A model generated the notes under the pieces. It did not search any database, had not been told where the DNA came from, and worked only from the letters and a program-made list of their open reading frames with translations. A stretch of DNA of 64,000 nucleotides from a virus (Duplodnaviria > Heunggongvirae > Uroviricota > Caudoviricetes), in the IMG/VR virus record IMGVR_UViG_3300026484_000600; one strand, given 5' to 3'. How positions within the stretch are numbered: the first letter of the stretch is position 1; every line of letters begins with the position of its first letter. Position numbers and translations under genes: made by a program. Shown here piece after piece: positions 1,349 through 39,289 of this stretch.

Positions 1349-1624
1349 ATGAATTTTGAACCATTAGGAACTAGAGTAGCAGTAAAAGTAGAGGAAGCTC
1401 AAAAAACAACAGCAAGCGGTATTATTATCCCTGATTCATCAAAGGAAACTCCATCATTTGGTAAAATTGTAGCATGTAATGATGATACTAAAGAGGATTT
1501 TGGTGTTGATATTGGAACAACAGTTGTCTTTGGAAAATTTTCCGGTACTGAAATTGAATTAGATAAAGAAAAATTACTAATTATTGAAATGGATGAAATA
1601 TTTGGTATCATTCGTAATGATTAG
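1349..1624 (+). CDS. groES: GroES / T4 gp31-like co-chaperonin (Hsp10)
   Basis: The 91-aa product aligns by eye with E. coli GroES along its whole length (MNxxPLxxRVxVK...SGIIIPDS...G.VxA.G...VKVGDxVxF). RBS AAAGGA upstream. Confidence 0.85.
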   Translation: MNFEPLGTRVAVKVEEAQKTTASGIIIPDSSKETPSFGKIVACNDDTKEDFGVDIGTTVVFGKFSGTEIELDKEKLLIIEMDEIFGIIRND

Positions 1625-2497: not shown

Positions 2498-2522
2498 AGA
2501 GGAATTATACCTCTCTAATTTT
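2496..2522. terminator. Bidirectional intrinsic terminator hairpin between convergent genes
   Basis: agagagg-aattata-cctctct, a perfect 7-bp GC-containing stem flanked by A/T runs. It sits exactly between the + gene ending at 2497 and the - gene ending at 2521. Confidence 0.6.
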
Positions 2523-4020
2523 AAAGTATGATTGATTCAATTTCTTTAATTAAAAAATCTTTATCATCCCATAATTTTGGTATGATTTGAAGCATACTAT
2601 CTGAAAAACCAGCTACTTCAAAAATATCAGATGTTTTTTCAATATCCAATGGTGAACCACCGCCATATCCTTCTAAATTCCAAAATAAAACTTTTACATT
2701 TGGATTGATTTCTTTACGATATGTTTTTAAATAATTTTTGAGTTGGTCACCAATATTACCCCAACTACCATACATTTGCATGTCACTAAAGACCACAATT
2801 TTATCAACATATGTTTTTGTTTTGATTAGTTCTTTTAGTGGAGCAGAAACATCAGTACCACCACCTCTAGTATTTAAATTATTGATAAAATCAAAAGATG
2901 ATAGACCTTTTATATCTCTTCTTGTACATGTATCAGCCCAAGTATAAAACAAACATTTATCATCATTCATACCTACTTTCATAGCAGCTGATAAAACTTT
3001 ACCAATATAAAATGGTGTTTTACGGTCATTACTTGAATAGCCACCCATAGAGCCTGATTCGTCAAGTAAAATAGCCACTTTTTCATCATCGGAAACAATA
3101 TTTGTATTTCCAGCTGAAAGGGCAAATGCTCTTTCAAGTGCCTTTTTAACGATATTCTTCTTAAATTCATCAATAGATAAATCTCTTACTGCATTCCATG
3201 CATCAATAAATCTAAATGGTAATACCATTGATTTTTGTACTCTTTTAGGATCAGTTATAAAATTAGACCAATGTTTTAGGTTATCTTCTGAAATATTACT
3301 TTCCATCAATGTTCTAATATTTTTTAACGCTGCCATATAACCCATTTTACCAGATTTAATTTCTTTCATATACGCTTTAACCCTATCTTCACCAGTTTTA
3401 GAGGCATTGATAGTTTGTGCTGTTTCAACGGCTTTTAATTGGTCTTCAATAACTCTTTTAAAGATAGTTTCATCATCAAAATTTTTAGGTGATGGATGTG
3501 CTAATTTAACTACATCTTTTAATTTCACTTTTGATTTTGGTTGTGCATATTTACGAAATTGATATTCATCAAATTTGGTTTCTAATGCTTTCTTAAAGGC
3601 TCTTCTAAGTGAATTTGGTACCATTTTATTTGGGTTTCTTGTATCCCAGAGTGCTAGCATTTCTGTCATATCATCTGGTCTTACAATAGCTTTTGTTAAT
3701 GCTGGACGTAAAAAATCACTTCCTTTCACATTTTCCGCCAGAATATTAGCCATAAAATGTGAAATGCTTCTAAGTCGACCGTTAGTTCTAGTGAAAACCA
3801 TAGCTTTTGCTACAAATTCAGCATCAGATTTTGATGTAGTAATAAGAGTTTCAATTCTTTTTAAACGTTCGCCTTCTTTTTCATAATATGAATCACCATT
3901 AAGCATAGAGTTTAAAACAACAGTTGCAACTTCTTTTTTTATAGGTCTATCATACGAAACACCCCCAGCCATATTAGTATTAGTTGGAATACTTTTAGTA
4001 CCTTGGTTAAATTTTGCCAT
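2521..4020 (-). CDS. rsr: Ro60-like (TROVE domain + C-terminal vWA/MIDAS) RNA-binding protein, Rsr orthologue
   Basis: The N-terminal region parallels the Ro60 N-terminus (GDSYYEKEGERLKRIETLI vs the human GGTYYIKEQKL..AEALIRLI pattern). The C-terminal vWA has a MIDAS DxSxS motif (LLDESGSMGG). Length 499 aa, typical of bacterial Rsr. Confidence 0.7.
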   Translation of the reverse strand: MAKFNQGTKSIPTNTNMAGGVSYDRPIKKEVATVVLNSMLNGDSYYEKEGERLKRIETLITTSKSDAEFVAKAMVFTRTNGRLRSISHFMANILAENVKGSDFLRPALTKAIVRPDDMTEMLALWDTRNPNKMVPNSLRRAFKKALETKFDEYQFRKYAQPKSKVKLKDVVKLAHPSPKNFDDETIFKRVIEDQLKAVETAQTINASKTGEDRVKAYMKEIKSGKMGYMAALKNIRTLMESNISEDNLKHWSNFITDPKRVQKSMVLPFRFIDAWNAVRDLSIDEFKKNIVKKALERAFALSAGNTNIVSDDEKVAILLDESGSMGGYSSNDRKTPFYIGKVLSAAMKVGMNDDKCLFYTWADTCTRRDIKGLSSFDFINNLNTRGGGTDVSAPLKELIKTKTYVDKIVVFSDMQMYGSWGNIGDQLKNYLKTYRKEINPNVKVLFWNLEGYGGGSPLDIEKTSDIFEVAGFSDSMLQIIPKLWDDKDFLIKEIESIIL

Positions 4021-4334
4021 AGGACAATCTCCTTACTTATTTAAATTTTGTAATATATTATATCCAAAAATACCTTATAATTAAATTAAAAATTGTAAAA
4101 TAAATATATAAGAGATTTAAATTACTCTTTAAATTTTATCTTAGAGATTGACCTAGAGAAAATAACTCTTCTGAAATGTTTTTATCTTAATTGATAACGC
4201 TCTAAATTACTCTACAAGTAAAAAAGATAAATTAATATCATAATTGTTTTTATTTAAGAGGTTCTTTATTACCTTGGGTATAAAATAAAGGTATTATTAT
4301 ATCAGTATATATTTTTATATGCTGGTATTTTTAT

Positions 4335-4715
4335 GGGTCCGAATTGGGATCGATGTTGCTAAAAGAAATTTAAATTGCAAGTAGAGTGATGACTTAATCA
4401 TCAAAAAAGCTTAAATGCAAACACAAAACTTTATATTCCACAGACTGCGAGAGTAGCTGCTTAATCCTCCCTTTGGGAGCCTGGAATCACTCGGTTTATT
4501 AGTTGTCTATTTACTGATAAATAATGGGTGTATAATAAAAATAGATAAGCTGAAGTTAAACTTGATACCTTTAGACGAAAATTATATCGAGTACCTTTAA
4601 TACAGATTTGTTTGGTTATCTAAGTATTAAAGTATTAAGAATCAAACTAAACTTGTAAATGAGATTTAGATGGAAGTAGTGGCAGACCCGAGTTCAATTC
4701 TCGGCGGATCCACCA
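4335..4715 (+). ncRNA. ssrA: tmRNA (SsrA), one-piece, about 381 nt
   Basis: The 5' GGGUCCG pairs with the 3' CGGAUCC-A-CCA, giving a 7-bp acceptor stem with G3:U70 and a CCA end at 4713-4715. A T-arm lies at 4688-4704 (ccgag-UUCAAUU-cucgg). A GGAUCGAUG 5' element resembles the E. coli GGAUUCGACG. The internal tag ORF starts at resume codon GCA (4417) and runs to UAA (4462-4464), encoding ANTKLYIPQTARVAA, followed by a CUCCC...GGGAG hairpin. SmpB is encoded at 23006-23455. Confidence 0.8.
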
Positions 4716-4867
4716 TTAATAAAAATAACCTTATTATATATATTTTTATTATCATTTGTATTATTATTATTATTATTTGATAATTTAGGGATAGCAACTG
4801 TTGCTGAAATGCCTAATATTACAATTACAAAAATCAATTCAATCATACTAAATCCGTAAGATTTCAT
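4694..4867 (-). CDS. Small type IV prepilin-like peptide (57 aa) with a class III signal peptide
   Basis: Unlisted short ORF. MKSYG|FSMIELIFVIVILGISATVAIP carries a prepilin leader ending in Gly, Phe+1, Glu+5 and a hydrophobic helix, then a poly-Asn tail. GAGGA RBS. The ATG is 2 nt after the RnlA stop, suggesting translational coupling. The 3' end overlaps the tmRNA 3' end antisense. Confidence 0.4.
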   Translation of the reverse strand: MKSYGFSMIELIFVIVILGISATVAIPKLSNNNNNNTNDNKNIYNKVIFINGGSAEN

Positions 4868-4869
4868 AA

Positions 4870-6273
4870 TTAATCATCCTCAATTTTTATTTCAAGCTCT
4901 TTGTCAAAACCTAATTTTTTAAGGTATTGTTTAGCCATTTCTAAACGTCTACATTCAAATTTAACTCTATCTATAACTTGTTTTTCAACTTCTTCAATAT
5001 TTTTACCATTTGCGAAACTCATTATATATGGGAAAGAACCTTTATCATCCTTAAATTTTAATGCTAAATCCTTTTTATTTCCATTCCATGAATTTTTAAA
5101 TTTGGTTTCTGCATCAGACACTATATGATTGACATGATTAACTATAATTTCAGAGATGCTATCAATAAAATCCCGTTCTTCTACATTTTCTTCTGGTATC
5201 ATTGCTATAGTATCATCGATTGTTTCATCTAAAACTTTTTCAACAATTTTATGTTCTTTTAAACCATCAGTTAAAATACCATGTAGTGACATATACCAAT
5301 CAGTTTTTACTTTAGCCATCTTACCATTTTCAAATGTGATTACCCAACCTTCTTTATCTTCAACAGTTTCTTTTAATTTAAGTAACTCATCTAATGTATA
5401 TAAAGGTTCTTGTTCAGCTGTTAATACATTGAATGCTTTTACTAATGTATGATCATATATATTTAGATATAAACCGTCATTATTTTCATCCCGTAGTTGT
5501 AGTAATTTAAGTGATGTTTCAGGATATGATAACACTATCTTATTAAACGGAGAAACTATTTCAAAGATTGCAGCATAGCCAAATTCTAAGGTTGCTAAAA
5601 TAAATGCTTTAAGTTTAGGATCTTTTTCAACTATTTCCATAGCTAATTTACATTGTTCCGCTTCAAATGAAAATTTTGTTTTAGCTACTAATTCTCCTTC
5701 TATTAAAAGAAATCTAATTGCAGAACCATCCTCTTTATTTGCAACTCTCACTATTTCTAAATCTTTTACATCTTCATACATCCAAGAATTTTCAGGCTTC
5801 AATGTTGGTAACACCTTTTTATCTAATGATAAAATCTTAAAAAAGTCTCCGTGAGTCTCGTTGTTTCTATCAAATTCAGCAACAGTCATATTTAATTTTA
5901 AATCTATTGCTCTATACGTTTTATCGTTTTCATCAACAAAAAGTTTATTAATATTACAAATTTCAGAATGATTATTAATAGAAAGTTCCATATTTGTTAT
6001 ATTAGTTCCATTTGTTTGACCAATATTAAAAAATTTATCGATGAATAGATATGTTTTCCAATCGGAATTTTGAGCTTTTACAAATGTTATACCTCTTAAT
6101 TCTGTGGCTCTAACCATAGAACCATCTAATTTTGCATCAAAAAAATCACCTGCATTTGCTAAAAAATAAGTACACATTGCAATTTCTGTATTGCCTATTT
6201 TTTGATGTTTCATTTTGAAAGTTTCATTTATTTTTGTGATTTCTAATACTTCATTGTAAGTTAATAAAGCCAT
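4870..6273 (-). CDS. rnlA: RNA ligase 1 (T4 RnlA family, tRNA repair ligase)
   Basis: ELRGITF and KFFNIGQ match T4 Rnl1 ECRGIMF and KFFNLNE. Nucleotidyltransferase motif I KEDGS (T4 K99 EDGSL). 467 aa. Confidence 0.75.
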   Translation of the reverse strand: MALLTYNEVLEITKINETFKMKHQKIGNTEIAMCTYFLANAGDFFDAKLDGSMVRATELRGITFVKAQNSDWKTYLFIDKFFNIGQTNGTNITNMELSINNHSEICNINKLFVDENDKTYRAIDLKLNMTVAEFDRNNETHGDFFKILSLDKKVLPTLKPENSWMYEDVKDLEIVRVANKEDGSAIRFLLIEGELVAKTKFSFEAEQCKLAMEIVEKDPKLKAFILATLEFGYAAIFEIVSPFNKIVLSYPETSLKLLQLRDENNDGLYLNIYDHTLVKAFNVLTAEQEPLYTLDELLKLKETVEDKEGWVITFENGKMAKVKTDWYMSLHGILTDGLKEHKIVEKVLDETIDDTIAMIPEENVEERDFIDSISEIIVNHVNHIVSDAETKFKNSWNGNKKDLALKFKDDKGSFPYIMSFANGKNIEEVEKQVIDRVKFECRRLEMAKQYLKKLGFDKELEIKIEDD

Positions 6274-7807: not shown

Positions 7808-8329
7808 CTAAATCATAAAATGGTTTAATCTTTTTAAAATTTTAGAGACTGTCTTTTCAGTTAGACCTATGTATGGATTTGTTTCAAAAACTCTATCTCT
7901 AAATATTTCCCTCATATTATTACTAACAAATTCAGAATTTCCAGTAATATCAAATAATTCATCATCTAAAATAATAAAATCTTTCACTTTGAAATATTCA
8001 ACAGCATCTAAAATTTGTTTGCCCCTACCATAAGATTTTCTATCTGTTCCACCAATAATTCTATTAGTATATTTAAATCCAAAGTTTTCTAAAGCTTTAA
8101 CTGTATTAACTGAATAATACCACGAACTCGAGATTATTACTTTCCAATCATTATTTTCAAGGATTTTATTTAATAAAGTGACTTTATCATAATCCATACC
8201 CATTAATCCATTCCATTTATTTTGAGTACCTTTAACTGGATTTTGTATATATCCATTTGGAAAAGTAAATGATTTTTGAAGATGATAATTATTTAAAACG
8301 CCGTCAATATCTAAAAATAACGCGTTCAT
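7808..8329 (-). CDS. HAD-superfamily phosphatase (possible polynucleotide/nucleotide phosphatase)
   Basis: HAD motif I FLDIDGVL, motif II IISSS, motif IV ILDDE. 173 aa. Confidence 0.55.
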   Translation of the reverse strand: MNALFLDIDGVLNNYHLQKSFTFPNGYIQNPVKGTQNKWNGLMGMDYDKVTLLNKILENNDWKVIISSSWYYSVNTVKALENFGFKYTNRIIGGTDRKSYGRGKQILDAVEYFKVKDFIILDDELFDITGNSEFVSNNMREIFRDRVFETNPYIGLTEKTVSKILKRLNHFMI

Positions 8330-8475
8330 TCAACTACTTCAATAGTAAAATCTTTATGATTTTCATAAAATGCTGATATGATGTTTAAGTCATGAACAGA
8401 CAAACCACATTCCCAAATGTTAAGTATTTTAAATTCGCCTGTTTTAATACAAGTTATTTTTAATTCATCAAACAT
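8326..8475 (-). CDS. Small hypothetical protein (49 aa)
   Basis: Unlisted short ORF with a strong TAAGGAG RBS. Its stop overlaps the ATG of the HAD phosphatase gene (ATGA). Confidence 0.35.
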   Translation of the reverse strand: MFDELKITCIKTGEFKILNIWECGLSVHDLNIISAFYENHKDFTIEVVE

Positions 8476-8917
8476 AGTTGCTCCTTAGTAATTGATTTAT
8501 TTTATTGAATCTATCATTGATTTTTGTAACAATCAAACGTTGGTTTTGAGAAATTGGTGGTATTTCATTTAAATTAAACCATTTCAATTCAAAAACCTCT
8601 CGTTTATCTAATTTAATTCGATTATATAAATATTTATCCCAATGAATAAAGTATAGTTCAATATTTTTCTTTTTATTATTTTGTTTGACGGAAAAATCTA
8701 AATCTTCTTTAGCGATCGATATACCTATTTCTTCCTGAACTTCTCTCAAACAACATTCAATTTTAGTTTCGTTTGGTTCAATTTTTCCTTTAATGAAATC
8801 AAAATTGTCATTTTTTCTAGATGATTTCATTAAAAGAATAGAGACGCCGTTGTTAGATAGTAAATAAGGTATAATTCCAATGGATATAGGTTTCATATGG
8901 TTCACTTTATATAGCAT
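8468..8917 (-). CDS. Nudix hydrolase
   Basis: Nudix box GKIEPNETKIECCLREVQEEIGI (Gx5Ex7REUxEExGU). Confidence 0.7.
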   Translation of the reverse strand: MLYKVNHMKPISIGIIPYLLSNNGVSILLMKSSRKNDNFDFIKGKIEPNETKIECCLREVQEEIGISIAKEDLDFSVKQNNKKKNIELYFIHWDKYLYNRIKLDKREVFELKWFNLNEIPPISQNQRLIVTKINDRFNKINQLLRSNYV

Positions 8918-9185
8918 TATTAGTACGGTTTAATGTTTTGTGCGCAAGTTTTATAAACTCAAATGACACATCATCAGGATGAATTTTAAAACCATATTCA
9001 TCTTCAAATTTTTTAGTCCATAAACTATAATGATTTCTTAATTCCATACCTAAACTAAAATGGTATATTATTAAATCGTTTTCATCGGTATTAATAAAAT
9101 CATTTAGTGGTTTAAAATCTTTAAGGTCATCTGATAGTAGAAGTTTCACAACCTCTACTAAATCTTCTGGAGGATTAGAAATCAT
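8907..9185 (-). CDS. Hypothetical protein
   Basis: 92-aa ORF, operon context. Confidence 0.4.
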   Translation of the reverse strand: MISNPPEDLVEVVKLLLSDDLKDFKPLNDFINTDENDLIIYHFSLGMELRNHYSLWTKKFEDEYGFKIHPDDVSFEFIKLAHKTLNRTNNAI

Positions 9186-10324
9186 TTATATTTCCTAGTA
9201 ATAATTTCCACTTTGTCGTCTGAAAATTGAGTAAGTTTTTCAGTCCAAGTAATAATTCTAGAGCGTTCTACAAATTCATTTTGAGCATAATCCATAGTTC
9301 CTTCAGAAATAGGTTTCAGGTATTTTTCTTTTTTAACTAAAATACCGTATTTAAATTTATCTTCGACTTCTTCCCAATCTTTACCAGTAGTTTCTTTACA
9401 GTATTTGACCTGTTCAAGACCATTTTTTCCTAATAGAGATTTATGAGAACAGTATGTTTGAGCATACATTGATCTAGAGTTCTTCTCAGAATCTCGAATT
9501 CGCCACATGATACTATTAAATGCTTCTTCTTTGGATGATACACCATAAACTCTGGCATCAAACCATGCATTGCCTACTTTTTCTTCCATAGTTTTAATGT
9601 ATTTCATAATATCTGGATTATTGGTATCAATTTCTCTATTTTCTAATTTTTGATCATATTCTTCAAACTTTTTTTCTAAAAAATTAGAAAAATGCTTATT
9701 AAACTGCATAGTAGTATAGGCCGCTATTAAAGAAGTTAATTTCTGAATTCTACCACCAAAAATCTGTTCATTTGTTGTCTCTACTTTTTTAATAATATAT
9801 TTTGATAGTACTTCTAATGATTTAGTTTCTGTTTGTATGTTTCTATTTTGCCAACAACATCGATCTATAATTTCGTCATTAGTATCAGAAACTATCCAAA
9901 AGTTGATACTAAAATATTTATCCTCCGTATCTTCATAAATTATATCTAATGAGCCAAGTAAGTTATACTCTTTATCATAAACTTTATATGATACTTCTTC
10001 TTCATCATTAAGAAAAAATAAATCTTTAACTTCAATAGGTATTAATCTTTCTTTGAATTGAGGAGCAAATACTAATGAAATTTCATCTGATTGTGTGTAA
10101 CCTGTTACTGCTCCAAATTTTTCAACGAGATTTTTGGTTGTTTCTTCCATTGTATTAGATAATATGTCATCAAATGGTTTTTTCATACCTTTTGTGTATT
10201 TACTAAATTTATGACCATCGATTCTACAAATGATAAAATCTCTTGGATCAATTACTGATTCAAATTCTTTTTCATAACCTTTAAGCCTAGTTCCTAAAGA
10301 TTCCTCTCTCATACTTTTTTTCAC
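9182..10324 (-). CDS. Thg1-like protein (tRNA-His guanylyltransferase family, 3'-5' polymerase) with a C-terminal extension
   Basis: The N-terminal 250 aa track Thg1: FIICRIDGHKFSKYTK (the RIDGxxFxxF motif), KPFDD, GYTQSDEISLVF (Thg1 GESDEYSF). 380 aa total, about 130 aa longer than Thg1. Confidence 0.7.
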   Translation of the reverse strand: MKKSMREESLGTRLKGYEKEFESVIDPRDFIICRIDGHKFSKYTKGMKKPFDDILSNTMEETTKNLVEKFGAVTGYTQSDEISLVFAPQFKERLIPIEVKDLFFLNDEEEVSYKVYDKEYNLLGSLDIIYEDTEDKYFSINFWIVSDTNDEIIDRCCWQNRNIQTETKSLEVLSKYIIKKVETTNEQIFGGRIQKLTSLIAAYTTMQFNKHFSNFLEKKFEEYDQKLENREIDTNNPDIMKYIKTMEEKVGNAWFDARVYGVSSKEEAFNSIMWRIRDSEKNSRSMYAQTYCSHKSLLGKNGLEQVKYCKETTGKDWEEVEDKFKYGILVKKEKYLKPISEGTMDYAQNEFVERSRIITWTEKLTQFSDDKVEIITRKYK

Positions 10325-15195: not shown

Positions 15196-17886
15196 TTATA
15201 ATCTTGGGTCGACACTTTCTTCTTTTTCATTTTCAAATAATAGATTGGCTATAATTTGTATTTGTTCTTTACTACCCATAGGAGCTTTAAGCATTTCTTC
15301 TCCTAATTTATACTCTGATATAGAAAGTCTTAATTTTTTAGAAATATTTTTTTGATTTAATAATCTATTAAATTTAATAGGGAATTTATAATCGTATCCA
15401 TAAATAATAGAAAGATATTCTTCATTTCTCACTTTTAAATATGGTGCAATCCAAGACTCTAATAATTTCACTTCGGGTTTTATTACGCAACCCTCCATAT
15501 TTTGATTTCGCACCAAATTATCATACCATTTTTCAGCTTTAATCAAATAATTTTTATCATCAAAATCAACAATATGTATATTATCTGAATTTAATAATTT
15601 AAAGTGTTTACTAGGAGTTAAATCCAAATTAATTATATTATTGTTTGATATTGCTTTCAATAATCTAAAACCTTTAAAATCAGTATTTGTATCTTCTCCA
15701 TAAAGGGTTATTTGTTTATTAAAAATTTTCCAAGCTTTTTTGTGGTCACTTAAAGGTATAAATCTATCAATTTCAAATTTTAAATCTTTATAAGAGTGAT
15801 ACTTGTGTCCATATTTTTTAACCAACTCTTTTTTAGCTAAAATATTCTTATCTTTTAAAAATTCTGATTTGTTAAATTCATCCTTTAAACTTATAAAAGC
15901 CTTATCAAATCCATTATCAAACAGAAAGTCAATTTCTGTTTGAATAGCTATATCCGCAGTCTTAAAATGGGTATCAATCAAACCTTTTCCTAAAAGAGCC
16001 CATGGTAATAATTCGCCATCTATAATTATCTCATCAGCATTATACATATCAAAAATATGCTTGTATTCTACTAATTTAGATGAGAATAATTCGGTTAAAT
16101 CTTCTCTTATTTTATATCCATTTCTACTTGTAGCATAACATTTTTTAATATTATCTTTAAAGAGATATAGTTGTGCTCTGGAACCCATATATTTAGGTTG
16201 TAGCACTACACTATCTACTTTATCCTTAAAATAATTGAGACCCATTTCTAAAGATTCTAGTGAATTATTTTCGATATTTTTATTTGTAGGGGAAATAGTA
16301 CCTCCTATATAACCTATACCATTTTTTACTATGTAATCTAATCTTCTTTGGTTATATGGATTTAAATCTTCAATAGATACTTCTTTCATAGCTTTACCTA
16401 TATCTTCAAACAGATTATTTCCAAAGTCGTTTCTTGCACTCTTAGGAGATAATGATTTTACACTTTGAATAAATGCTTTGCCATAACCTATACTATATCC
16501 AGTTAATTTTCCACCATATACACAACCTGTATCAATACAAACCTTATTTTTAAAAGATCTAACAGATGACTGACCCATATGACCGAATATATGAACCGGA
16601 TGGTTATTAATTGCTTCTTCTTTCAAATATGATGTTAATTCATCATTAGTCTTATCTTTGTTTTTACTTCTACTAGCACATTTATATTGGTGTTTTAATG
16701 AAATTCGATCCATCTTTTCAAGATATTTAACTTCACATGGTGCATGAGTAACTATAAAGCCTCTTTTATTTAATCCTATAAATTTAACCCATCCTTTCAT
16801 ATTATGAAAAATATCTAAAAACATAGATTTTAGCTCTTCATTTTTCTCTAGTAAAATTGCTGTATTATAGTATCTTTTTTTCTGATCTAATCGTTCTGGA
16901 GTAATTTCTAAATCTTTGTGATTTGTTATCCATTTCCAAACCATCTCTTCATGATTGCCCAATATTAATTGAAATCGATCTTGAAATTTTATCATATTTT
17001 TGTGTATGAATTTTATAGTTTCAGTTAAATCTTCTTCTGATGATTTATCTATTAAATCACCTGCAAAAATTAGTCCTATATTTTTTGTTTTAACAGTATC
17101 TATAATTTCATTGTCTTTAATTATAAAACCATATTTTTCAAGTAATTGTTTTAATTCTTGAATACATCCATGAACATCACCAATAGTAATCCAATCATAA
17201 GTACTATTTACTATTCTGTCAGTATATTTTTTCCAATCCCATACATCTACACTATAAACAGGCTTTAACATTGTAGGTGTTAAATCATATCGATTTTCCT
17301 GTTCCACTTCCAAAAGAAAATCTTTATTTTTAATTTTATGAATATTTTTATATATCCCTTTTTTTAATGTTTTTAATGTCTCCGTTTTTAATCTTTTTAT
17401 ATGTTTAGAAATAATTTTCCCATTGGTACTTGGACGTTGATATAGGCTTTCAGAAAAATTCTTTTGGTATTCATCAATATTTTTATAATCGAAAACTATA
17501 ATATCTACATTATAATTATTATCTTTTGCTATATCTAACACGTCGTTTCTAAATTTTTCGCTTAATCCGGTTGTATCTAAAATAACAAATTCTGCATTGA
17601 TTGGATAACTGGTAACAGCTCTTAATTTTGTAAATAGTATTTCGAATGCTTGTGTTGAACTCTCAGTCATAATTTCATCTATTTTACCATAGTTATAACC
17701 CAAAATATCTTTTCTAATATTATCGGAACTAATATATTGTATATTTGTCTTTAAATTATTATTAACATTGCCTTTATATTTTTGTAATGAAGGTATTAGA
17801 ATTTCATTAGCAAACGTCGTTTTACCAGAACCACTAGGTCCGACAAGCATTATTATGGTATGTACTTGGGTTTTAATTTTATTCAT
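15196..17886 (-). CDS. pnkp: Bacterial-type polynucleotide kinase-phosphatase Pnkp (kinase + metallophosphoesterase + ligase domains)
   Basis: N-terminal P-loop kinase (VGPSGSGKTTFAN). Central calcineurin-like phosphatase motifs (GDVHG, GDLIDKS, GNHE). C-terminal about 450 aa with a KYMGSR lysine motif, consistent with the Pnkp ligase domain. 896 aa. Confidence 0.7.
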   Translation of the reverse strand: MNKIKTQVHTIIMLVGPSGSGKTTFANEILIPSLQKYKGNVNNNLKTNIQYISSDNIRKDILGYNYGKIDEIMTESSTQAFEILFTKLRAVTSYPINAEFVILDTTGLSEKFRNDVLDIAKDNNYNVDIIVFDYKNIDEYQKNFSESLYQRPSTNGKIISKHIKRLKTETLKTLKKGIYKNIHKIKNKDFLLEVEQENRYDLTPTMLKPVYSVDVWDWKKYTDRIVNSTYDWITIGDVHGCIQELKQLLEKYGFIIKDNEIIDTVKTKNIGLIFAGDLIDKSSEEDLTETIKFIHKNMIKFQDRFQLILGNHEEMVWKWITNHKDLEITPERLDQKKRYYNTAILLEKNEELKSMFLDIFHNMKGWVKFIGLNKRGFIVTHAPCEVKYLEKMDRISLKHQYKCASRSKNKDKTNDELTSYLKEEAINNHPVHIFGHMGQSSVRSFKNKVCIDTGCVYGGKLTGYSIGYGKAFIQSVKSLSPKSARNDFGNNLFEDIGKAMKEVSIEDLNPYNQRRLDYIVKNGIGYIGGTISPTNKNIENNSLESLEMGLNYFKDKVDSVVLQPKYMGSRAQLYLFKDNIKKCYATSRNGYKIREDLTELFSSKLVEYKHIFDMYNADEIIIDGELLPWALLGKGLIDTHFKTADIAIQTEIDFLFDNGFDKAFISLKDEFNKSEFLKDKNILAKKELVKKYGHKYHSYKDLKFEIDRFIPLSDHKKAWKIFNKQITLYGEDTNTDFKGFRLLKAISNNNIINLDLTPSKHFKLLNSDNIHIVDFDDKNYLIKAEKWYDNLVRNQNMEGCVIKPEVKLLESWIAPYLKVRNEEYLSIIYGYDYKFPIKFNRLLNQKNISKKLRLSISEYKLGEEMLKAPMGSKEQIQIIANLLFENEKEESVDPRL

Positions 17887-18795: not shown

Positions 18796-19673
18796 TCTGG
18801 AAATCTCCTAATAATTCTTTCCCAAACATCTTCAGGAATCTCTGATTGAAAATCATTTTTTAATGCGAATTTAATATTCTTTTCAGTCATCCATAAAAGA
18901 TCTACATCTTCTTTTTCAAAGCGCTCATATAAGAATGGACTAGCCCAAACTATAATTCGATCATCTTTTATTAAATATCCATTATTTGCAGCTTCTATAT
19001 ATTCTAAATATTCAAAAATTATATCTTCACGATCTATTCCTTTTATTTCAAGAATATTAAAAGAGTTTTTAAAATGTCCTAAAAGTTTTTCTTTTCCATC
19101 ATATTGTATCTTATCTTCAACATAGAAAATACTTTGATGGAACCCTTTACCATAGGTATCCATAACATCATAATTCATTTCGAGGGGTATATTATTGTAA
19201 AAAATATCAGTAATTACAATGTCTCCAGTACCGATATAATCTGTATCTTTTGCCTCTATTACTAATAAATCTTTATTAAAATCGTCGGTATTTTTTAAAA
19301 TTTCTGTTTCAAAAAAAATACCTTTTTCTATTGATACTGATGAAATATACCAACCATCAGATAAAAAATTATCATCATTAATATTAAGGGTTAAATCACT
19401 AATATTAATAGTATCATATTTTGAATATTCGTATTCATTAACATTAATAGAAATACTACCATCAATAGCACAACTGGAAATATGTTCTATATCATCAAAA
19501 TCATAATATTGTCTTTCCCATCCACTACTACTGAATAATGTATCAAAATGGCCAATAATTTCATTGTAATCAAAACGTCTAAGAAGTTCTTTTATATTGT
19601 TGATATGGAGCTTATTGAGCTTACCACAGCAATATTCTCCACCATATCCACCAAATGTTAATACCATTTTCAT
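18783..19673 (-). CDS. Hypothetical protein
   Basis: 296-aa ORF between hen1 and pnkp. No motif recognised. Confidence 0.45.
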   Translation of the reverse strand: MKMVLTFGGYGGEYCCGKLNKLHINNIKELLRRFDYNEIIGHFDTLFSSSGWERQYYDFDDIEHISSCAIDGSISINVNEYEYSKYDTINISDLTLNINDDNFLSDGWYISSVSIEKGIFFETEILKNTDDFNKDLLVIEAKDTDYIGTGDIVITDIFYNNIPLEMNYDVMDTYGKGFHQSIFYVEDKIQYDGKEKLLGHFKNSFNILEIKGIDREDIIFEYLEYIEAANNGYLIKDDRIIVWASPFLYERFEKEDVDLLWMTEKNIKFALKNDFQSEIPEDVWERIIRRFPEWLI

Positions 19674-20923
19674 ACCCTTTTAATTATACAACCAATACTT
19701 GTAGATATACCATTGATATTATCGCCTATTTCTATAAATTCAAAGGATAGGTTATCATTATTAAAATTAGACATAAAACTTTTAAATTCATCAAATGTAG
19801 GTTCCCAATCATGATCATCATGTCGCATTTCTCCACCTAATTCGTAAAATACGTTAAAGTCTTTATTTGGTACTGTAATGATAAACGTATCAAAATTAAT
19901 AGATGTTAGCACTAATTCTATTAATCTTTTTGATTCAACTTTTGGCATATGTTCGATAACTTCGGTTAGTATTACATCTACTAACTCATTATCGTAATCT
20001 TTTATAAAATCTTCTAGACTATTAAAGAGATTAATATTTGTAATTTCTTTTTTTGAAGCTTTTATCTTGACTGACTCTAATAGATTAGGATTAATATCAA
20101 TGGCGTTATAAAAATATTTTTCTATTTTTTTAGAAAAATCTATTGCATAAAATCCTTCTCCACACCCAATATCAATAATCGATTTATTAAATGATAATAA
20201 ACGCTCTATTCTATCTTTTCGTTGCATAGCCGTATTACCATAAGCCATATTGATATTATATCTTTTTGATTCTTCAAGTAATTGTTTATATTTTTTAAAT
20301 TGATTTTTACTTTTAATAAGATTTCTACTTACTAAATAACGTATAAAGAATGGTGCATCTAATCGATTCATAGCATTTAGGTATTTTTCAATATTTGAAT
20401 TATCTAAATGTACATAGTCGTTACTTGATAATGCAATAAAAATCATCATAAGATTAATATAATTTAATAACATGAACCAACTATTTTCAGTTGTCACCTT
20501 AATAGTATAGTTTTTCCCTACTTGTTCAGTAATTTCAATTTCAAAATCAGGGAAATATTTCTTAAAATCCATTAACTGTTTTATTCTTTTAATTTCGAGT
20601 AAATTAATATAAAAATATTTCGGGTTTTTTATATCTAATTCTGATTCTTCTCTAACAGTACTTGAAAAAAATTCACTTATTGCATTGATAATAAACATGG
20701 GCGAGTTGTATTTAGAAATATTTAGATAATCAAATTCTTGTGATCCAAAGGATACATCATTATCAGCATCCTTAAAATAGATATTAAAGTCGGTACCATT
20801 ATGAGAGTACCAGGTAAATGCAGTACCTTTACGTATACTTCTTATTTGCATAGATGAATTTGGATTTTTTTTAATAATGTATCCAAAATTTGGATCATCA
20901 GAATGTAGCTGTAAAATAGCCAT
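19670..20923 (-). CDS. hen1: Hen1-like RNA 3'-terminal 2'-O-methyltransferase (C-terminal Rossmann MTase)
   Basis: SAM-binding motif I IIDIGCGEGFYAIDF in the C-terminal half of a 417-aa protein. Bacterial Hen1 has the same architecture and partners with Pnkp, which lies 1.8 kb downstream in the same orientation. Confidence 0.55.
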   Translation of the reverse strand: MAILQLHSDDPNFGYIIKKNPNSSMQIRSIRKGTAFTWYSHNGTDFNIYFKDADNDVSFGSQEFDYLNISKYNSPMFIINAISEFFSSTVREESELDIKNPKYFYINLLEIKRIKQLMDFKKYFPDFEIEITEQVGKNYTIKVTTENSWFMLLNYINLMMIFIALSSNDYVHLDNSNIEKYLNAMNRLDAPFFIRYLVSRNLIKSKNQFKKYKQLLEESKRYNINMAYGNTAMQRKDRIERLLSFNKSIIDIGCGEGFYAIDFSKKIEKYFYNAIDINPNLLESVKIKASKKEITNINLFNSLEDFIKDYDNELVDVILTEVIEHMPKVESKRLIELVLTSINFDTFIITVPNKDFNVFYELGGEMRHDDHDWEPTFDEFKSFMSNFNNDNLSFEFIEIGDNINGISTSIGCIIKRV

Positions 20924-37877: not shown

Positions 37878-39289
37878 TTCGATGTAATTAATTTATCGCC
37901 AACTTTAAGTGAAGCCATAATACAGTCTTCCACTATTTTTCCATCATCTAAGACTTTTGGAAAAATATGTCTTCCAGACACTTTGATAGTTTTTCCACTT
38001 TTTAAAGTGATTTCATATACTTCTTGTTCTTCTGGTTCAGTAACGGCTGTTACAGTTCTAAATTCATTATTAGTTCCAAGAACTTTATCACCTACATTGA
38101 TTTCTTCAATATTTATTTTACCGCTTGGGGTTGTTACTTTTTCTCCAAATGCTAGACATCGGTTGTATTGGTCTGCCGTCCATACAATAGTGTCAAAGAG
38201 TGTTGCTACAGCTCTTAATTCTTCAGATACATATTTATCTTTTTCAAACATTCCCTGCCAATTTTTCCCATTTGGTGTCATTAGACCCGCATAATCTAGA
38301 ATAATAATAGGGACAGTATTATATTTTTGTAGATAATTTCTTACAAATAATTCCAATTTCATTGCACTTAGTGTATTGGGTTGATAAAAATGAACGGTAA
38401 ATCTACCATAGCCTTTATTATCACATTTCTTTAGATGATTATAAATTTCCATTTCAGATTTTTCAATTTGGTGTGTTGGTATTTTAGTCGAATGTGTTAT
38501 ATATCTTTTCATGATTTTTTCTTCTTTTAGTTCCAACGAAATATATATAACATCTCTTTTCATTTGGATATAATTCCATGCTAAATTTATTAATCCTATT
38601 GATTTACCACCGCCTGATTTAGCTAGTAAATAATTTAAACTAGGAATTGTTACACCTCCATCTAATTTATCATCTACGTTCCACCATCCAGTAGGAATTG
38701 TAGCTTCAGTTGATGTCAGCATTTTAAATAAATCTCGAAAATTATCTTTATCAGTATCTATGGTTACACCTAGTTTTGTATCGATATCAACATTTACTGC
38801 TTCTTTAATTTTCTTTTCAATAGTTCCATAATCTTCTTCTTCTAAAAGCTCGATACTATCTTCGATTGCACCTTTCATACTCATATTTTTTATAAATGCA
38901 TTTAGATAATCTTCAAGATATTCTGTTGGCCAAGGTTTATTTATATCTAACCAGTCATCATGCACATTATCTAAGTTTAACTCTAATAATATAGCATCTT
39001 CTGGAGGAATACTTTTATATAAATCATAATAATCGATCATGAAATCAACTATTAATTTATTGATTTTTGACTCAAAAAAATCTTTATCTAAAAATGTTAT
39101 ACCCTTAACAAATAACTCTGGATTATTAATAAGTTGAGCAAGTAAAACCCGTTCTTTATCTTCAATATCTAATAGTTTACCTTCCGAACGTTCAACATTC
39201 TTTTTTTTCTTTTTCTTTTTCGATGATGATTCTGCTTCTAATTCGGCTAAAGCGTCTTCATATTCTGTATCATCTATTTGCTCATCCAT
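37868..39289 (-). CDS. gp41/DnaB-family replicative helicase whose ORF terminates in a 96-aa split-intein N-fragment
   Basis: DnaB motifs IPTGWWNVDDKLDGG, Walker A LAKSGGGKSIGL and the arginine-finger region DQYNR. Then CLAFGEKVTTPSGKINIEEINVGDKV (intein block A, Cys1) and a SGRHIFP block-B-like segment, followed by a stop. No C-extein follows. Confidence 0.75.
   Translation of the reverse strand: MDEQIDDTEYEDALAELEAESSSKKKKKKKNVERSEGKLLDIEDKERVLLAQLINNPELFVKGITFLDKDFFESKINKLIVDFMIDYYDLYKSIPPEDAILLELNLDNVHDDWLDINKPWPTEYLEDYLNAFIKNMSMKGAIEDSIELLEEEDYGTIEKKIKEAVNVDIDTKLGVTIDTDKDNFRDLFKMLTSTEATIPTGWWNVDDKLDGGVTIPSLNYLLAKSGGGKSIGLINLAWNYIQMKRDVIYISLELKEEKIMKRYITHSTKIPTHQIEKSEMEIYNHLKKCDNKGYGRFTVHFYQPNTLSAMKLELFVRNYLQKYNTVPIIILDYAGLMTPNGKNWQGMFEKDKYVSEELRAVATLFDTIVWTADQYNRCLAFGEKVTTPSGKINIEEINVGDKVLGTNNEFRTVTAVTEPEEQEVYEITLKSGKTIKVSGRHIFPKVLDDGKIVEDCIMASLKVGDKLITSKEE
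37871..38158 (-). mobile_element. Split-intein IntN (blocks A and B) at the end of the gp41/DnaB gene
   Basis: 96 aa starting with Cys directly after the helicase QYNR motif. The gene ends without blocks F/G or a C-extein. Confidence 0.6.

What the first reader, a model, noticed from the sequence alone, without database searches (positions are those of the whole stretch)
2521..4334. Ro60 (TROVE+vWA) orthologue next to the tmRNA, with a 315-nt AT-rich spacer that could hold a Y-RNA-like partner
Bacterial Rsr acts with Y RNAs such as YrlA, which carry tRNA-like modules, and with exoribonucleases in structured-RNA decay and repair. Here the Ro60-like gene is immediately followed by a non-coding stretch at 4021-4334. 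The stretch contains a duplicated TAAATTACTCT motif at about 4121 and 4204 and several small hairpins. The tmRNA follows, and its tRNA-like domain is itself a candidate Ro ligand. I could not identify a canonical Y-RNA Ro-binding helix by eye.
Basis: partly seen in the sequence, partly recalled or inferred. Interest (0 to 1): 0.7.

Follow-up and report, generated by a model that had tools for sequence, protein, structure and literature searches.

The report
Phage Ro60 gene lacking its Y RNA
The Ro60-like gene and the tmRNA gene are real and sit in a phage RNA-repair gene cluster, but the spacer between them holds back-to-back promoter-like sequences and a conserved block, not a Y RNA, and the Y-RNA-like gene that nearly all close relatives carry at this spot is missing here.

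Summary
The genes are real. ORF 2521-4020 encodes a TROVE + vWA Ro60 homologue, and 4335-4715 is a tmRNA. The Ro60 gene lies on the minus strand, so the 314-nt spacer is upstream of both genes, which diverge from it.

No Y RNA was detected in the spacer or anywhere in the 64-kb window. Four tests agreed:
- Rfam (the YrlA model does find relatives' RNAs, below its cut-off).
- A covariance model built from this clade's own YrlA-like RNAs.
- An nhmmer profile of the closest relatives' ~290-nt Y-like RNA.
- A signature-motif search.

Nine of ten relatives at 68-79% Ro60 identity carry one Y-like RNA 284-417 nt upstream of Ro60, on the same strand. More distant relatives carry up to about seven. 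Alignment shows this lineage has a 314-nt spacer where tmRNA-linked relatives have about 1.1 kb. The Y-like gene is gone.

What remains is a Ro60 promoter-like site, an opposed TTGTAAAAT promoter-like site facing the tmRNA, and a block (4066-4170) under strong constraint. That block occurs only in relatives that also carry the tmRNA.

The duplicated 11-mer is at chance level, and its second copy is mutated in the 95% relative.

Verdict: an ordinary member of a known kind (phage Ro60 in an RNA-repair island) with one mildly interesting twist, a Ro60 without a nearby Y RNA.

The parts
2521..4020 (-). Ro60 homologue (TROVE/HEAT-repeat ring region plus vWA domain with DESGS MIDAS-type motif), 499 aa
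   Evidence: Pfam TROVE 3.8e-16 and vWA_Ro60 6.9e-5, below cut-off. Aligns with phiLo Ro60 9L5Y over residues 17-433, E 1.2e-14. 584 homologues at E<=1e-40. Under purifying selection against L003: codon positions 94.4/98.0/81.8% identical.
4057..4070 (-). Promoter-like TTTTTGGATATAAT, 36 nt upstream of the Ro60 ATG (inferred Ro60 promoter)
   Evidence: Read from the sequence. L003 has TTTTTTGATATAAT at the same place. It resembles the TTGTATAAT motif that precedes many genes of this phage. Function is inferred.
4093..4101 (+). Promoter-like TTGTAAAAT facing the tmRNA, back to back with the Ro60 promoter
   Evidence: TTGTATAAT occurs 15 times in the window against 4.6 expected, mostly about 20 nt upstream of start codons. 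A perfect TGTATAAT sits at the aligned position in L268, L278, L265 and L267. Function is inferred.
4066..4170 (.). Strongly constrained non-coding block
   Evidence: One 1-nt indel in 105 nt against L003, where third codon positions differ by 18-20%.
4110..4129 (+). Hairpin AAGAG-N10-CTCTT; contains the first TAAATTACTCT copy
   Evidence: Homologous hairpins with different stem sequences occur in L268, L265 and L267. Covariation is weak: 2 of 5 pairs.
4143..4203 (.). 61-nt element (Ro60-sense: AGAGCGTTATCAATTAAG...CAGAAGAGTTATTTTCTCTAGGTCAATCTCT), including hairpin AGAG-N7-CTCT at 4155-4169
   Evidence: About 92% identical in L268, whose Ro60 is only 77% identical. Recognisable in L278, L265 and L267. 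A regex for its core found no match near Ro60 in tmRNA-less relatives L266, L279, L281, L023.
4203..4213 (+). Second TAAATTACTCT copy; not conserved
   Evidence: Substitution at 4206 and deletion at 4212 in L003.
4263..4291 (+). Hairpin UCUUUAUU-N13-AAUAAAGG, conserved in L003 and L268
   Evidence: The substitution A4268G in L003 and the L268 version give G-U pairs on the + strand but A-C mismatches on the - strand. This favours a + strand RNA.
4335..4715 (+). tmRNA gene, tag ANTKLYIPQTARVAA
   Evidence: ARAGORN. Rfam RF00023 114.1 bits, E 8e-44. 96.1% identical in L003.
4717..4751 (+). A+T-only inverted repeat directly after the tmRNA CCA end (terminator-like)
   Evidence: the repeat finder I13: 11-nt arms, 100% complementary. 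Function is inferred.
4870..6273 (-). T4 Rnl1-type RNA ligase
   Evidence: Pfam RNA_lig_T4_1 1.9e-13. Same synteny (ligase, small N_methyl ORF, tmRNA, Ro60) in L268.
7808..8329 (-). HAD_SAK_2 phosphatase-type RNA-repair domain protein
   Evidence: Pfam 4.4e-18.
9182..10324 (-). Thg1-like 3'-5' nucleotidyltransferase
   Evidence: Pfam Thg1 2.9e-26.
15196..17886 (-). Bacterial-type Pnkp (kinase plus ligase domains)
   Evidence: Pfam PNKP_ligase 5.1e-31, AAA_33 5.1e-10.
19670..20923 (-). Hen1 RNA 2'-O-methyltransferase
   Evidence: Pfam Hen1_N 1.1e-65.

Best explanation
The window comes from an uncultured, A+T-rich (27% GC) phage. Its nearest relatives are assembled as contigs of about 220 kb.

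The left end of the window is an RNA-repair and RNA-quality-control island. It holds Ro60, a tmRNA, an Rnl1-type ligase, HAD_SAK_2, NUDIX, a Thg1-like enzyme and Pnkp/Hen1.

The 314-nt spacer is the shared upstream region of two divergent genes. I read it as follows:
- A Ro60 promoter at 4057-4070 on the minus strand.
- Back to back with it, a TTGTAAAAT promoter at 4093-4101 on the plus strand.
- A plus-strand transcript from about 4110 that begins with conserved short hairpins and runs toward the tmRNA. It is either a long 5' leader removed during tmRNA maturation or a separate short RNA.

The spacer does not encode a Y RNA. The ancestral arrangement, kept in relatives, is tmRNA (divergent), then about 700 nt of conserved non-coding DNA, then a ~290-nt Y-like RNA, then its promoter, then Ro60. 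This lineage has lost about 0.8 kb, including the Y-like RNA gene.

Its Ro60 is still under purifying selection. It therefore must act with an RNA encoded elsewhere (phage or host) or bind damaged or misfolded RNAs directly.

Shown: the gene identities, absence of any detectable Y RNA, presence of Y-like RNAs in relatives, the missing segment, and the constraint on 4066-4170.

Inferred: the promoter assignments, the strand and extent of the spacer transcript, and any statement about what Ro60 binds.
For: Gene identities.

Absence of a Y RNA:
- Rfam over 3900-4900 at E<=10 and over the whole window at E<=5 gives only the tmRNA plus noise.
- The YrlA model RF02553 is in the library and does hit relatives: L012 E 1.5e-5, L011 E 8e-4.
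- Model R1 was built from 8 clade YrlA-like units whose T-arm, acceptor and D-arm covary (13 of 16 pairs compensatory). It hits untrained relatives at 70.9 bits (L016-018) and 42.7 bits (L019). In the window, with filters off, it reaches only 16.8 bits, E 0.42, and nothing in the spacer.
- The nhmmer profile of nine ~290-nt Y-like RNAs finds nothing in the window or L003.
- The two-motif descriptor finds 16 hits against 16.1 in shuffles, none in the spacer.

Relatives:
- The signature GAATTACAnAAAyTGATTACATCG lies 284-417 nt upstream of Ro60, same strand, in 9 of 10 relatives at 68-79% identity.
- That RNA has a 14-bp basal stem and inner helices with 17 of 31 pairs compensatory.

Missing segment:
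- The spacer is 314 nt here. It is about 1.0-1.2 kb in L265, L267, L268 and L278, which share the divergent tmRNA.
- The flanks are alignable.

Constraint and orientation:
- 4066-4170 has one indel in 105 nt against 18-20% divergence at synonymous-type positions.
- A conserved TGTATAAT sits on the tmRNA-sense strand.
- TTGTATAAT is enriched (15 against 4.6) and precedes genes.
- The + strand folds with z = -2.06, the - strand with +0.14.
- G-U pairs in hairpin 4263-4291 exist only on the + strand.
Against: - Promoters and transcript ends are inferred from sequence only. The generic promoter scan finds no more sites than shuffles do (13 against 16.9).
- RNAalifold gives almost no support for a conserved fold of the 4103-4210 element: -1.09 kcal/mol, 2 compensatory pairs. 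A DNA-level regulatory role is equally possible.
- The tmRNA also has a nearer promoter-like sequence (about 4300-4312; perfect TATAAT in L003). The long-leader model is therefore not required.
- Only 64 kb of a genome of about 220 kb was searchable. A Y-like RNA could be encoded elsewhere. The check on the 224-kb relative used only an exact 19-base signature.
- A very divergent or very short Ro-binding RNA could escape all four searches.
Confidence: 0.6

Rival explanations
1. The conserved block 4066-4203 acts at the DNA level. It would be an operator or activator site (AGAG-N7-10-CTCT palindromes) for a phage or host regulator that controls the divergent Ro60 and tmRNA promoters. On this view it has no function as RNA.
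For: - The AGAG/CTCT cluster is the densest in the window: 8 against 1.65 expected.
- The block lies immediately upstream of the Ro60 promoter-like site and is highly constrained.
- RNAalifold support for an RNA fold is negligible.
Against: - Stem sequences of the homologous hairpins differ between relatives while keeping complementarity: AAGAG/CTCTT, CAAAGG/CCTTTG, ATGG/CCAT. A sequence-specific operator would keep its half-sites.
- The block co-occurs with the tmRNA, not with Ro60. No match to its core was found in Ro60 relatives that lack the tmRNA.
- Other AGAG...CTCT palindromes in the window lie in coding DNA or at convergent gene ends.
Confidence: 0.17
2. The spacer encodes an independent small RNA on the plus strand, about 4110 to 4295. 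It would be transcribed from TTGTAAAAT and end at hairpin 4263-4291 plus the following U-rich run. Its function would be separate from the tmRNA, possibly including binding to Ro60.
For: - Promoter-like site at 4093-4101.
- Plus-strand folding z = -2.06.
- Hairpin 4263-4291 has plus-strand-only G-U pairs and is followed by UAUUAUUAU.
- A second promoter-like site nearer the tmRNA would make the two units independent.
Against: - In L268 the homologous hairpin is not followed by a U-run, and the non-coding conservation continues to the tmRNA.
- The region 4171-4330 diverges at about 15% against L003, close to neutral.
- No Rfam family matches.
- No Ro-binding motif of either the GNCGAA type (PMC4201824) or the clade type is present.
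Confidence: 0.15
3. One reading: the spacer holds a Y-RNA-like partner of Ro60, too divergent for the models, and/or the adjacent tmRNA itself serves as the Ro60 ligand through its tRNA-like domain.
For: - Position: in this clade Y-like RNAs lie directly upstream of Ro60.
- Ro60-tmRNA adjacency recurs in 5 further relatives' loci (L004, L265, L267, L268, L278).
- The tmRNA begins GGGUCCGAA, which contains the GGUCCGA heptamer of metazoan Y RNAs (motif from PMC4201824).
- YrlA-type Y RNAs are tRNA mimics, and the tmRNA carries a tRNA-like domain.
Against: - All four searches were negative.
- The Ro60-sense strand folds like shuffles.
- The only CG dinucleotide in the spacer gives no CGAA-type motif.
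- Relatives with the tmRNA still keep a separate Y-like RNA (L004, L265, L267, L268, L278), so the tmRNA does not replace it there.
- Half of the close relatives have Ro60 and the Y-like RNA but no tmRNA nearby.
- GGUCCGA is not conserved in relatives' tmRNAs. It lies in a fully paired acceptor stem rather than a bulged Ro-binding helix.
Confidence: 0.05

Closest known systems
Thermus phage phiLo Ro60 with Yrl1/Yrl2 (Hu et al., NAR 2025, PMC12135203; PDB 9L5Y, 9KOP)
   Same: - A phage-encoded Ro60 homologue with a TROVE ring and vWA domain.
- It is the only solved structure that the window protein matches by sequence (E 1.2e-14).
- In phiLo the Y-RNA-like partners lie in the non-coding region upstream of the Ro60 gene, as in this window's relatives.
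   Different: - Only about 25% identity.
- The phiLo Yrl RNAs were picked through a CGAA motif. No such motif or structure exists in this spacer.
- phiLo was not reported with an adjacent tmRNA.
Bacterial Rsr with YrlA/YrlB Y RNAs, e.g. the Salmonella rsr-yrlBA-rtcBA RNA-repair operon (Chen et al., RNA 2014, PMC4201824; Hughes et al. 2020, PMC7790460)
   Same: - Ro60 is encoded together with RNA ligase and end-healing enzymes.
- In the window's relatives, tRNA-mimicking Y RNAs lie within 4 kb on the same strand. They have a permuted T-arm/acceptor/D-arm module and match RF02553 at E 1.5e-5 and 8e-4.
   Different: - The ligase here is Rnl1-type, plus Pnkp/Hen1, not RtcB/RtcA.
- The clade's Ro-proximal signature is GAUUACAUCG(N)A rather than GNCGAA(N)G, and Rfam scores stay below the gathering cut-off.
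- This particular lineage has no detectable YrlA at all.
Bacterial Pnkp/Hen1 and phage T4-type Pnkp/Rnl1 RNA repair (own knowledge of the families; Pfam PF16542, PF22032, PF09511)
   Same: Kinase-phosphatase-ligase, Hen1 methyltransferase and Rnl1-type ligase genes are all present within 20 kb of Ro60. They are consistent with repair of cleaved tRNA-like RNAs during infection.
   Different: The combination with Ro60, a Thg1-like enzyme and a phage tmRNA in one island is not the classical two-gene Pnkp/Hen1 operon.
Phage-encoded tmRNA genes (own knowledge: reported in some large phages)
   Same: A complete one-piece tmRNA with a tag reading frame.
   Different: Here and in five relatives' loci it is linked to Ro60 and an Rnl1 ligase. 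No functional link is shown.

Membership tests
Ro60 / Rsr (TROVE-domain RNA-binding proteins) | TROVE (HEAT-repeat ring) domain over the N-terminal ~300 residues | tested here: met
   Pfam PF05731, 59.7 bits against a cut-off of 23. Alignment to the solved phiLo Ro60 covers residues 17-433.
Ro60 / Rsr (TROVE-domain RNA-binding proteins) | C-terminal vWA domain with MIDAS DxSxS motif | tested here: met
   DESGS at 320-324, invariant in 16 relatives. PF25045 vWA_Ro60 scores 23.3 bits, below the 27.7 cut-off, but is recorded for several relatives.
Ro60 / Rsr (TROVE-domain RNA-binding proteins) | Closed ring architecture; binding of Y RNA on the outer surface and of misfolded RNA ends in the central hole | not tested
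   No structure prediction was run. RNA binding cannot be tested with these tools.
Y RNA / YrlA (Rfam RF02553, RF00019) | Match to the family covariance model near the Ro60 gene | tested here: not met
   No hit at E<=10 in 3900-4900 or E<=5 in the whole window. The model does hit relatives L012 and L011.
Y RNA / YrlA (Rfam RF02553, RF00019) | Encoded within 4 kb of Ro60 on the same strand (Chen et al. 2014, PMC4201824) | tested here: not met
   No candidate on the minus strand in the window or in the 6 kb beyond it held in L003.
Y RNA / YrlA (Rfam RF02553, RF00019) | Long stem formed by the 5' and 3' ends, carrying the Ro-binding motif (GNCGAA(N)G or GGUCCGA) | tested here: not met
   The spacer holds one CG dinucleotide and no CGAA on either strand. 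The Ro60-sense fold has z = +0.14.
Y RNA / YrlA (Rfam RF02553, RF00019) | tRNA-like module (T-arm, acceptor, D-arm) | tested here: not met
   ARAGORN and Rfam find only the tmRNA. R1 matches only the tmRNA 3' end, weakly: 16.7 bits, E 0.43.
Clade-specific Y-like RNAs of this phage Ro60 group (defined here) | 5' signature GAAUUAYA...GAUUACAUCG paired with a 3' CG(A/C)UUUYAUC, closed by a covarying basal stem | tested here: not met
   Present in 9 of 10 close relatives and in most distant ones. Absent from the window apart from one chance match inside coding DNA at 37886.
tmRNA (RF00023) | tRNA-like domain with G-U at acceptor position 3, tag reading frame, pseudoknot-rich body | tested here: met
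   Full-length match to model positions 1-374, 114.1 bits. Tag peptide ANTKLYIPQTARVAA*.

The most novel reading that the evidence does not exclude
In this lineage the dedicated Y-like RNA gene next to Ro60 has been lost, while Ro60 stays under purifying selection. Ro60 might then work without a cis-encoded Y RNA. It could instead use the neighbouring phage tmRNA precursor, or the conserved plus-strand spacer RNA at about 4110-4291, as its tether or substrate. That would link Ro60 quality control to trans-translation and RNA repair during infection.
Probability: 0.06. Interest if true: 0.7.

Novelty: new member of a known kind. Interest (0 to 1): 0.3.

Why it matters
Phage Ro60 homologues and their Y-RNA-like partners are already known (Chen et al. 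2014; the phiLo structure, 2025). The gene itself is therefore not news.

Three results are useful:
- A clear negative. The spacer is not a Y RNA locus and should not be annotated as one.
- A large environmental phage clade carries Y-like RNAs that Rfam does not capture at its cut-off. These are arrays of YrlA-like tRNA mimics and a ~290-nt long form. They share the signature GAUUACAUCG and could seed a better model.
- A natural comparison for asking what a phage Ro60 does with and without its Y RNA. The Y-less lineage here can be set against sister lineages that keep the Y-like RNA. All sit in an unusually complete RNA-repair island (Rnl1, Pnkp/Hen1, Thg1-like, HAD_SAK, tmRNA).

Tried and rejected
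- Rfam at permissive thresholds on the spacer, the whole window and the Vibrio phage relatives: no Y RNA. Rfam on the L268 spacer, including its long Y-like RNA: no family.
- Thermodynamic folding of the spacers of the window, Vibrio phage L001 and L004: z-scores between -2.1 and +0.1, not decisive.
- Local alignment of the spacer against relatives' Y-like regions: no score above the shuffled range, and only promoter-like A+T stretches align.
- A TACATCG match at 37886 (minus strand) with a neighbouring hairpin looked like a short Y-like unit. It lies at the stop codons of two convergent ORFs and was rejected as a terminator-like hairpin.
- AGAG-N5-12-CTCT palindromes are enriched in the window (12 against 2.7). 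The other copies lie in coding DNA or at convergent gene ends, so no regulon could be inferred.
Two earlier attempts were syntax errors.
- A stricter 19-base signature found only the L004 contig. This argues against, but does not exclude, a copy elsewhere in the 224-kb contig.
- A second IMG/VR protein scan added no close relatives.
- RNAalifold on the conserved spacer element gave essentially no structural support.
- No conserved ORF exists in the non-coding DNA between the tmRNA and the Y-like RNA in relatives.
Full report
**What is at the coordinates**

ORF 2521-4020 encodes 499 aa on the minus strand.
- It matches Pfam TROVE (59.7 bits, E 3.8e-16). It matches the Ro60-type vWA domain below the cut-off (23.3 bits).
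- By sequence it matches one solved protein only, the Ro60 homologue of Thermus phage phiLo (9L5Y/9KOP), over residues 17-433, E 1.2e-14. That protein is a TROVE ring capped by a vWA domain (PMC12135203).
- A DESGS (DxSxS) motif at 320-324 is invariant in 16 relatives.

ARAGORN and Rfam agree on a full-length tmRNA at 4335-4715 on the plus strand (114.1 bits against a cut-off of 47; tag ANTKLYIPQTARVAA).

The correction is orientation. Ro60 reads leftward, so 4021-4334 is upstream of both genes, which diverge from it.

**The repeat and the hairpins**

TAAATTACTCT occurs exactly at 4118 and 4203. This is not significant:
- 28% of Markov shuffles of the spacer and 15% of real 314-nt windows contain an exact 11-mer repeat.
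- With one mismatch allowed, the motif is at chance frequency in the window.
- The second copy is mutated in the 95% relative.

What stands out is a cluster of AGAG/CTCT tetramers, 8 against 1.65 expected, the densest in the 64 kb. They form two short palindromes at 4111-4128 and 4155-4169.

**Is there a Y RNA?**

Rfam finds none at E<=10 over 3900-4900 or at E<=5 over the whole window. The negative is meaningful. The YrlA model RF02553 is in the library and does hit two phage relatives below its cut-off: L012 at E 1.5e-5 and L011 at E 8e-4.

Those hits opened the comparative picture. In relatives with 42-53% identical Ro60, the DNA just upstream of Ro60, on the same strand, holds one to about seven repeated units.
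- Each unit starts with (A/G)AUUACAUCG and ends with CG(A/C)UUUYAUC.
- The long units contain a permuted tRNA-like module: T-arm, acceptor stem closed by a loop, then D-arm.
- In an alignment of eight units, 13 of 16 predicted pairs show compensatory changes.

This is the YrlA architecture described by Chen et al. (PMC4201824).

A covariance model built from these eight units (R1) recovers untrained members at 70.9 bits (L016-018) and 42.7 bits (L019). It also recovers many short forms. In the window, with filters off, its best score is 16.8 bits (E 0.42). Nothing falls in the spacer. One weak hit covers the tmRNA 3' end.

**The closest relatives**

A protein search found many relatives at 67-77% identity. 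I fetched the DNA around eight of them, plus L004 (68%) and L023 (79% over the aligned N-terminal part).
- Nine of the ten carry the signature GAATTACAnAAAyTGATTACATCG, 284-417 nt upstream of the Ro60 start on the same strand.
- It opens a ~290-nt RNA closed by a 14-bp basal stem. Of 31 predicted pairs, 17 show compensatory changes.
- Rfam does not recognise this long form.
- An nhmmer profile of the nine finds the 5' signature in many distant relatives. It finds nothing in the window or in L003 beyond one chance hit in coding DNA.
- A two-motif descriptor gives 16 hits in the window against 16.1 in shuffles.
- The exact signature is absent from the 224-kb IMG/VR contig that is 95% identical to the window at Ro60.

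**The missing segment**

L265, L267, L268 and L278 share the window's divergent tmRNA. L268 also shares the Rnl1 ligase and the small N_methyl ORF in the same order. Their tmRNA-to-Ro60 spacers are about 1.0-1.2 kb. Aligned with the window, they show that the window and L003 lack two segments:
- A ~300-nt conserved non-coding block next to the tmRNA.
- The segment with the Y-like RNA, its promoters and the proximal Ro60 promoter.

The simplest reading is loss of the Y-like gene in this lineage. One other relative, L280, also lacks it.

**What remains in the spacer**

Against L003, third codon positions of Ro60 and Rnl1 differ by 18-20%. In contrast, 4066-4170 shows a single 1-nt indel in 105 nt. 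The stretch 4171-4330 differs at about 15%.

A 61-nt element at 4143-4203 is about 92% identical in L268. It is recognisable in L278, L265 and L267. No match to its core was found in the four tmRNA-less relatives. It therefore travels with the tmRNA, not with Ro60.

On the tmRNA-sense strand, a TGTATAAT lies at the aligned position just before the element in all four relatives. The window has TTGTAAAAT at 4093-4101. TTGTATAAT is the phage's common promoter-like motif. It occurs 15 times against 4.6 expected, mostly about 20 nt upstream of start codons.

The Ro60 side has TTTTTGGATATAAT at 4057-4070, 36 nt from the ATG.

Two observations favour a plus-strand transcript:
- The plus strand folds with z = -2.06, the minus strand with +0.14.
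- Hairpin 4263-4291 keeps its pairing through G-U pairs that exist only on the plus strand, in L003 and in L268.

Support for a conserved RNA fold of the core element is negligible. A DNA-level role cannot be excluded.

**Context**

The neighbourhood is an RNA-repair island:
- Rnl1-type ligase, 4870-6273.
- HAD_SAK_2, 7808-8329.
- NUDIX, 8468-8917.
- DUF6794, 8907-9185.
- Thg1-like enzyme, 9182-10324.
- Bacterial-type Pnkp, 15196-17886.
- Hen1, 19670-20923.

In more distant relatives, Ro60 sits beside tRNA gene arrays. The tmRNA adjacency therefore fits a general habit of placing Ro60 in the phage's RNA-gene and RNA-repair region. It does not need a direct Ro60-tmRNA interaction. Relatives that have the tmRNA still keep a separate Y-like RNA.

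The tmRNA's 5' GGUCCGA heptamer lies in a fully paired acceptor stem and is not conserved in relatives: GGGTCTGAA in L267 and GGGGCTGAA in L004.

**Verdict**

The genes, the spacer and the repeat exist, but the strand relation was wrong and the repeat is at chance level.

Ro60 and the tmRNA are confirmed, the Y RNA in the spacer is not, and nothing supports the tmRNA as a ligand.

The finding is a new member of a known kind. Its most interesting aspect is that Ro60 has lost the cis-encoded Y-like RNA that its sister lineages keep.

Noticed in passing
L011 3718-4916; L021 3692-4907; L012 2584-4471: Arrays of about 5 to 7 YrlA-like and short Y-like genes in tandem upstream of one phage Ro60 gene. 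All share the signature (A/G)AUUACAUCG ... CG(A/C)UUUYAUC. Rfam RF02553 scores them only 33-40 bits against a cut-off of 69.
   Followed up: partly
L268 3571-3857; L278 2116-2402; L265 3593-3879; L023 2279-2561, and others: A ~290-nt structured RNA upstream of Ro60 in the 68-79% relatives. It has a 14-bp covarying basal stem and an invariant CCAATCTAATAATGGGC core in most. It matches no Rfam family.
   Followed up: partly
L268 2990-3230 and the aligned parts of L265, L267, L278: A ~300-nt highly conserved non-coding block between the tmRNA and the spacer element, with no conserved ORF on either strand. It is absent from the window and L003. Its function is unknown.
   Followed up: partly
window 15196-17886 and 19670-20923: A bacterial-type Pnkp (kinase plus ligase domains) and a Hen1 methyltransferase, i.e. 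the components of a Pnkp/Hen1 RNA-repair pair. They are separated by three small ORFs with no Pfam match.
   Followed up: partly
window 4694-4867 (minus strand): A 57-aa ORF with a prepilin-type N-terminal methylation motif (PF07963, E 7e-6). It overlaps the tmRNA 3' end by 22 nt. A similar small ORF is called at the same place in L268 and L278. The region is only 70.6% identical between the window and L003.
   Followed up: no
L004 1069-3387: The Rnl1-type ligase gene appears truncated to 280 aa. It is followed by a GIY-YIG SegE-like endonuclease ORF and a further 176-aa ORF. This suggests a ligase gene interrupted by a homing endonuclease.
   Followed up: no
window, 15 sites (e.g. 1318, 21698, 55109, 60885, 63653): TTGTATAAT is enriched threefold. 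It usually lies about 20 nt upstream of a Shine-Dalgarno sequence and ATG, and looks like the phage's main promoter -10 element.
   Followed up: partly
window 1349-1624: A phage-encoded GroES (Cpn10) homologue two genes from Ro60. It is conserved at the same relative position in several relatives (L266, L267, L280).
   Followed up: no
L003 around 5301-5310 (aligned to window 4710): The 95% relative's tmRNA 3' end carries a 6-nt duplication (CACCAT CACCAT), giving two possible CCA ends.
   Followed up: no
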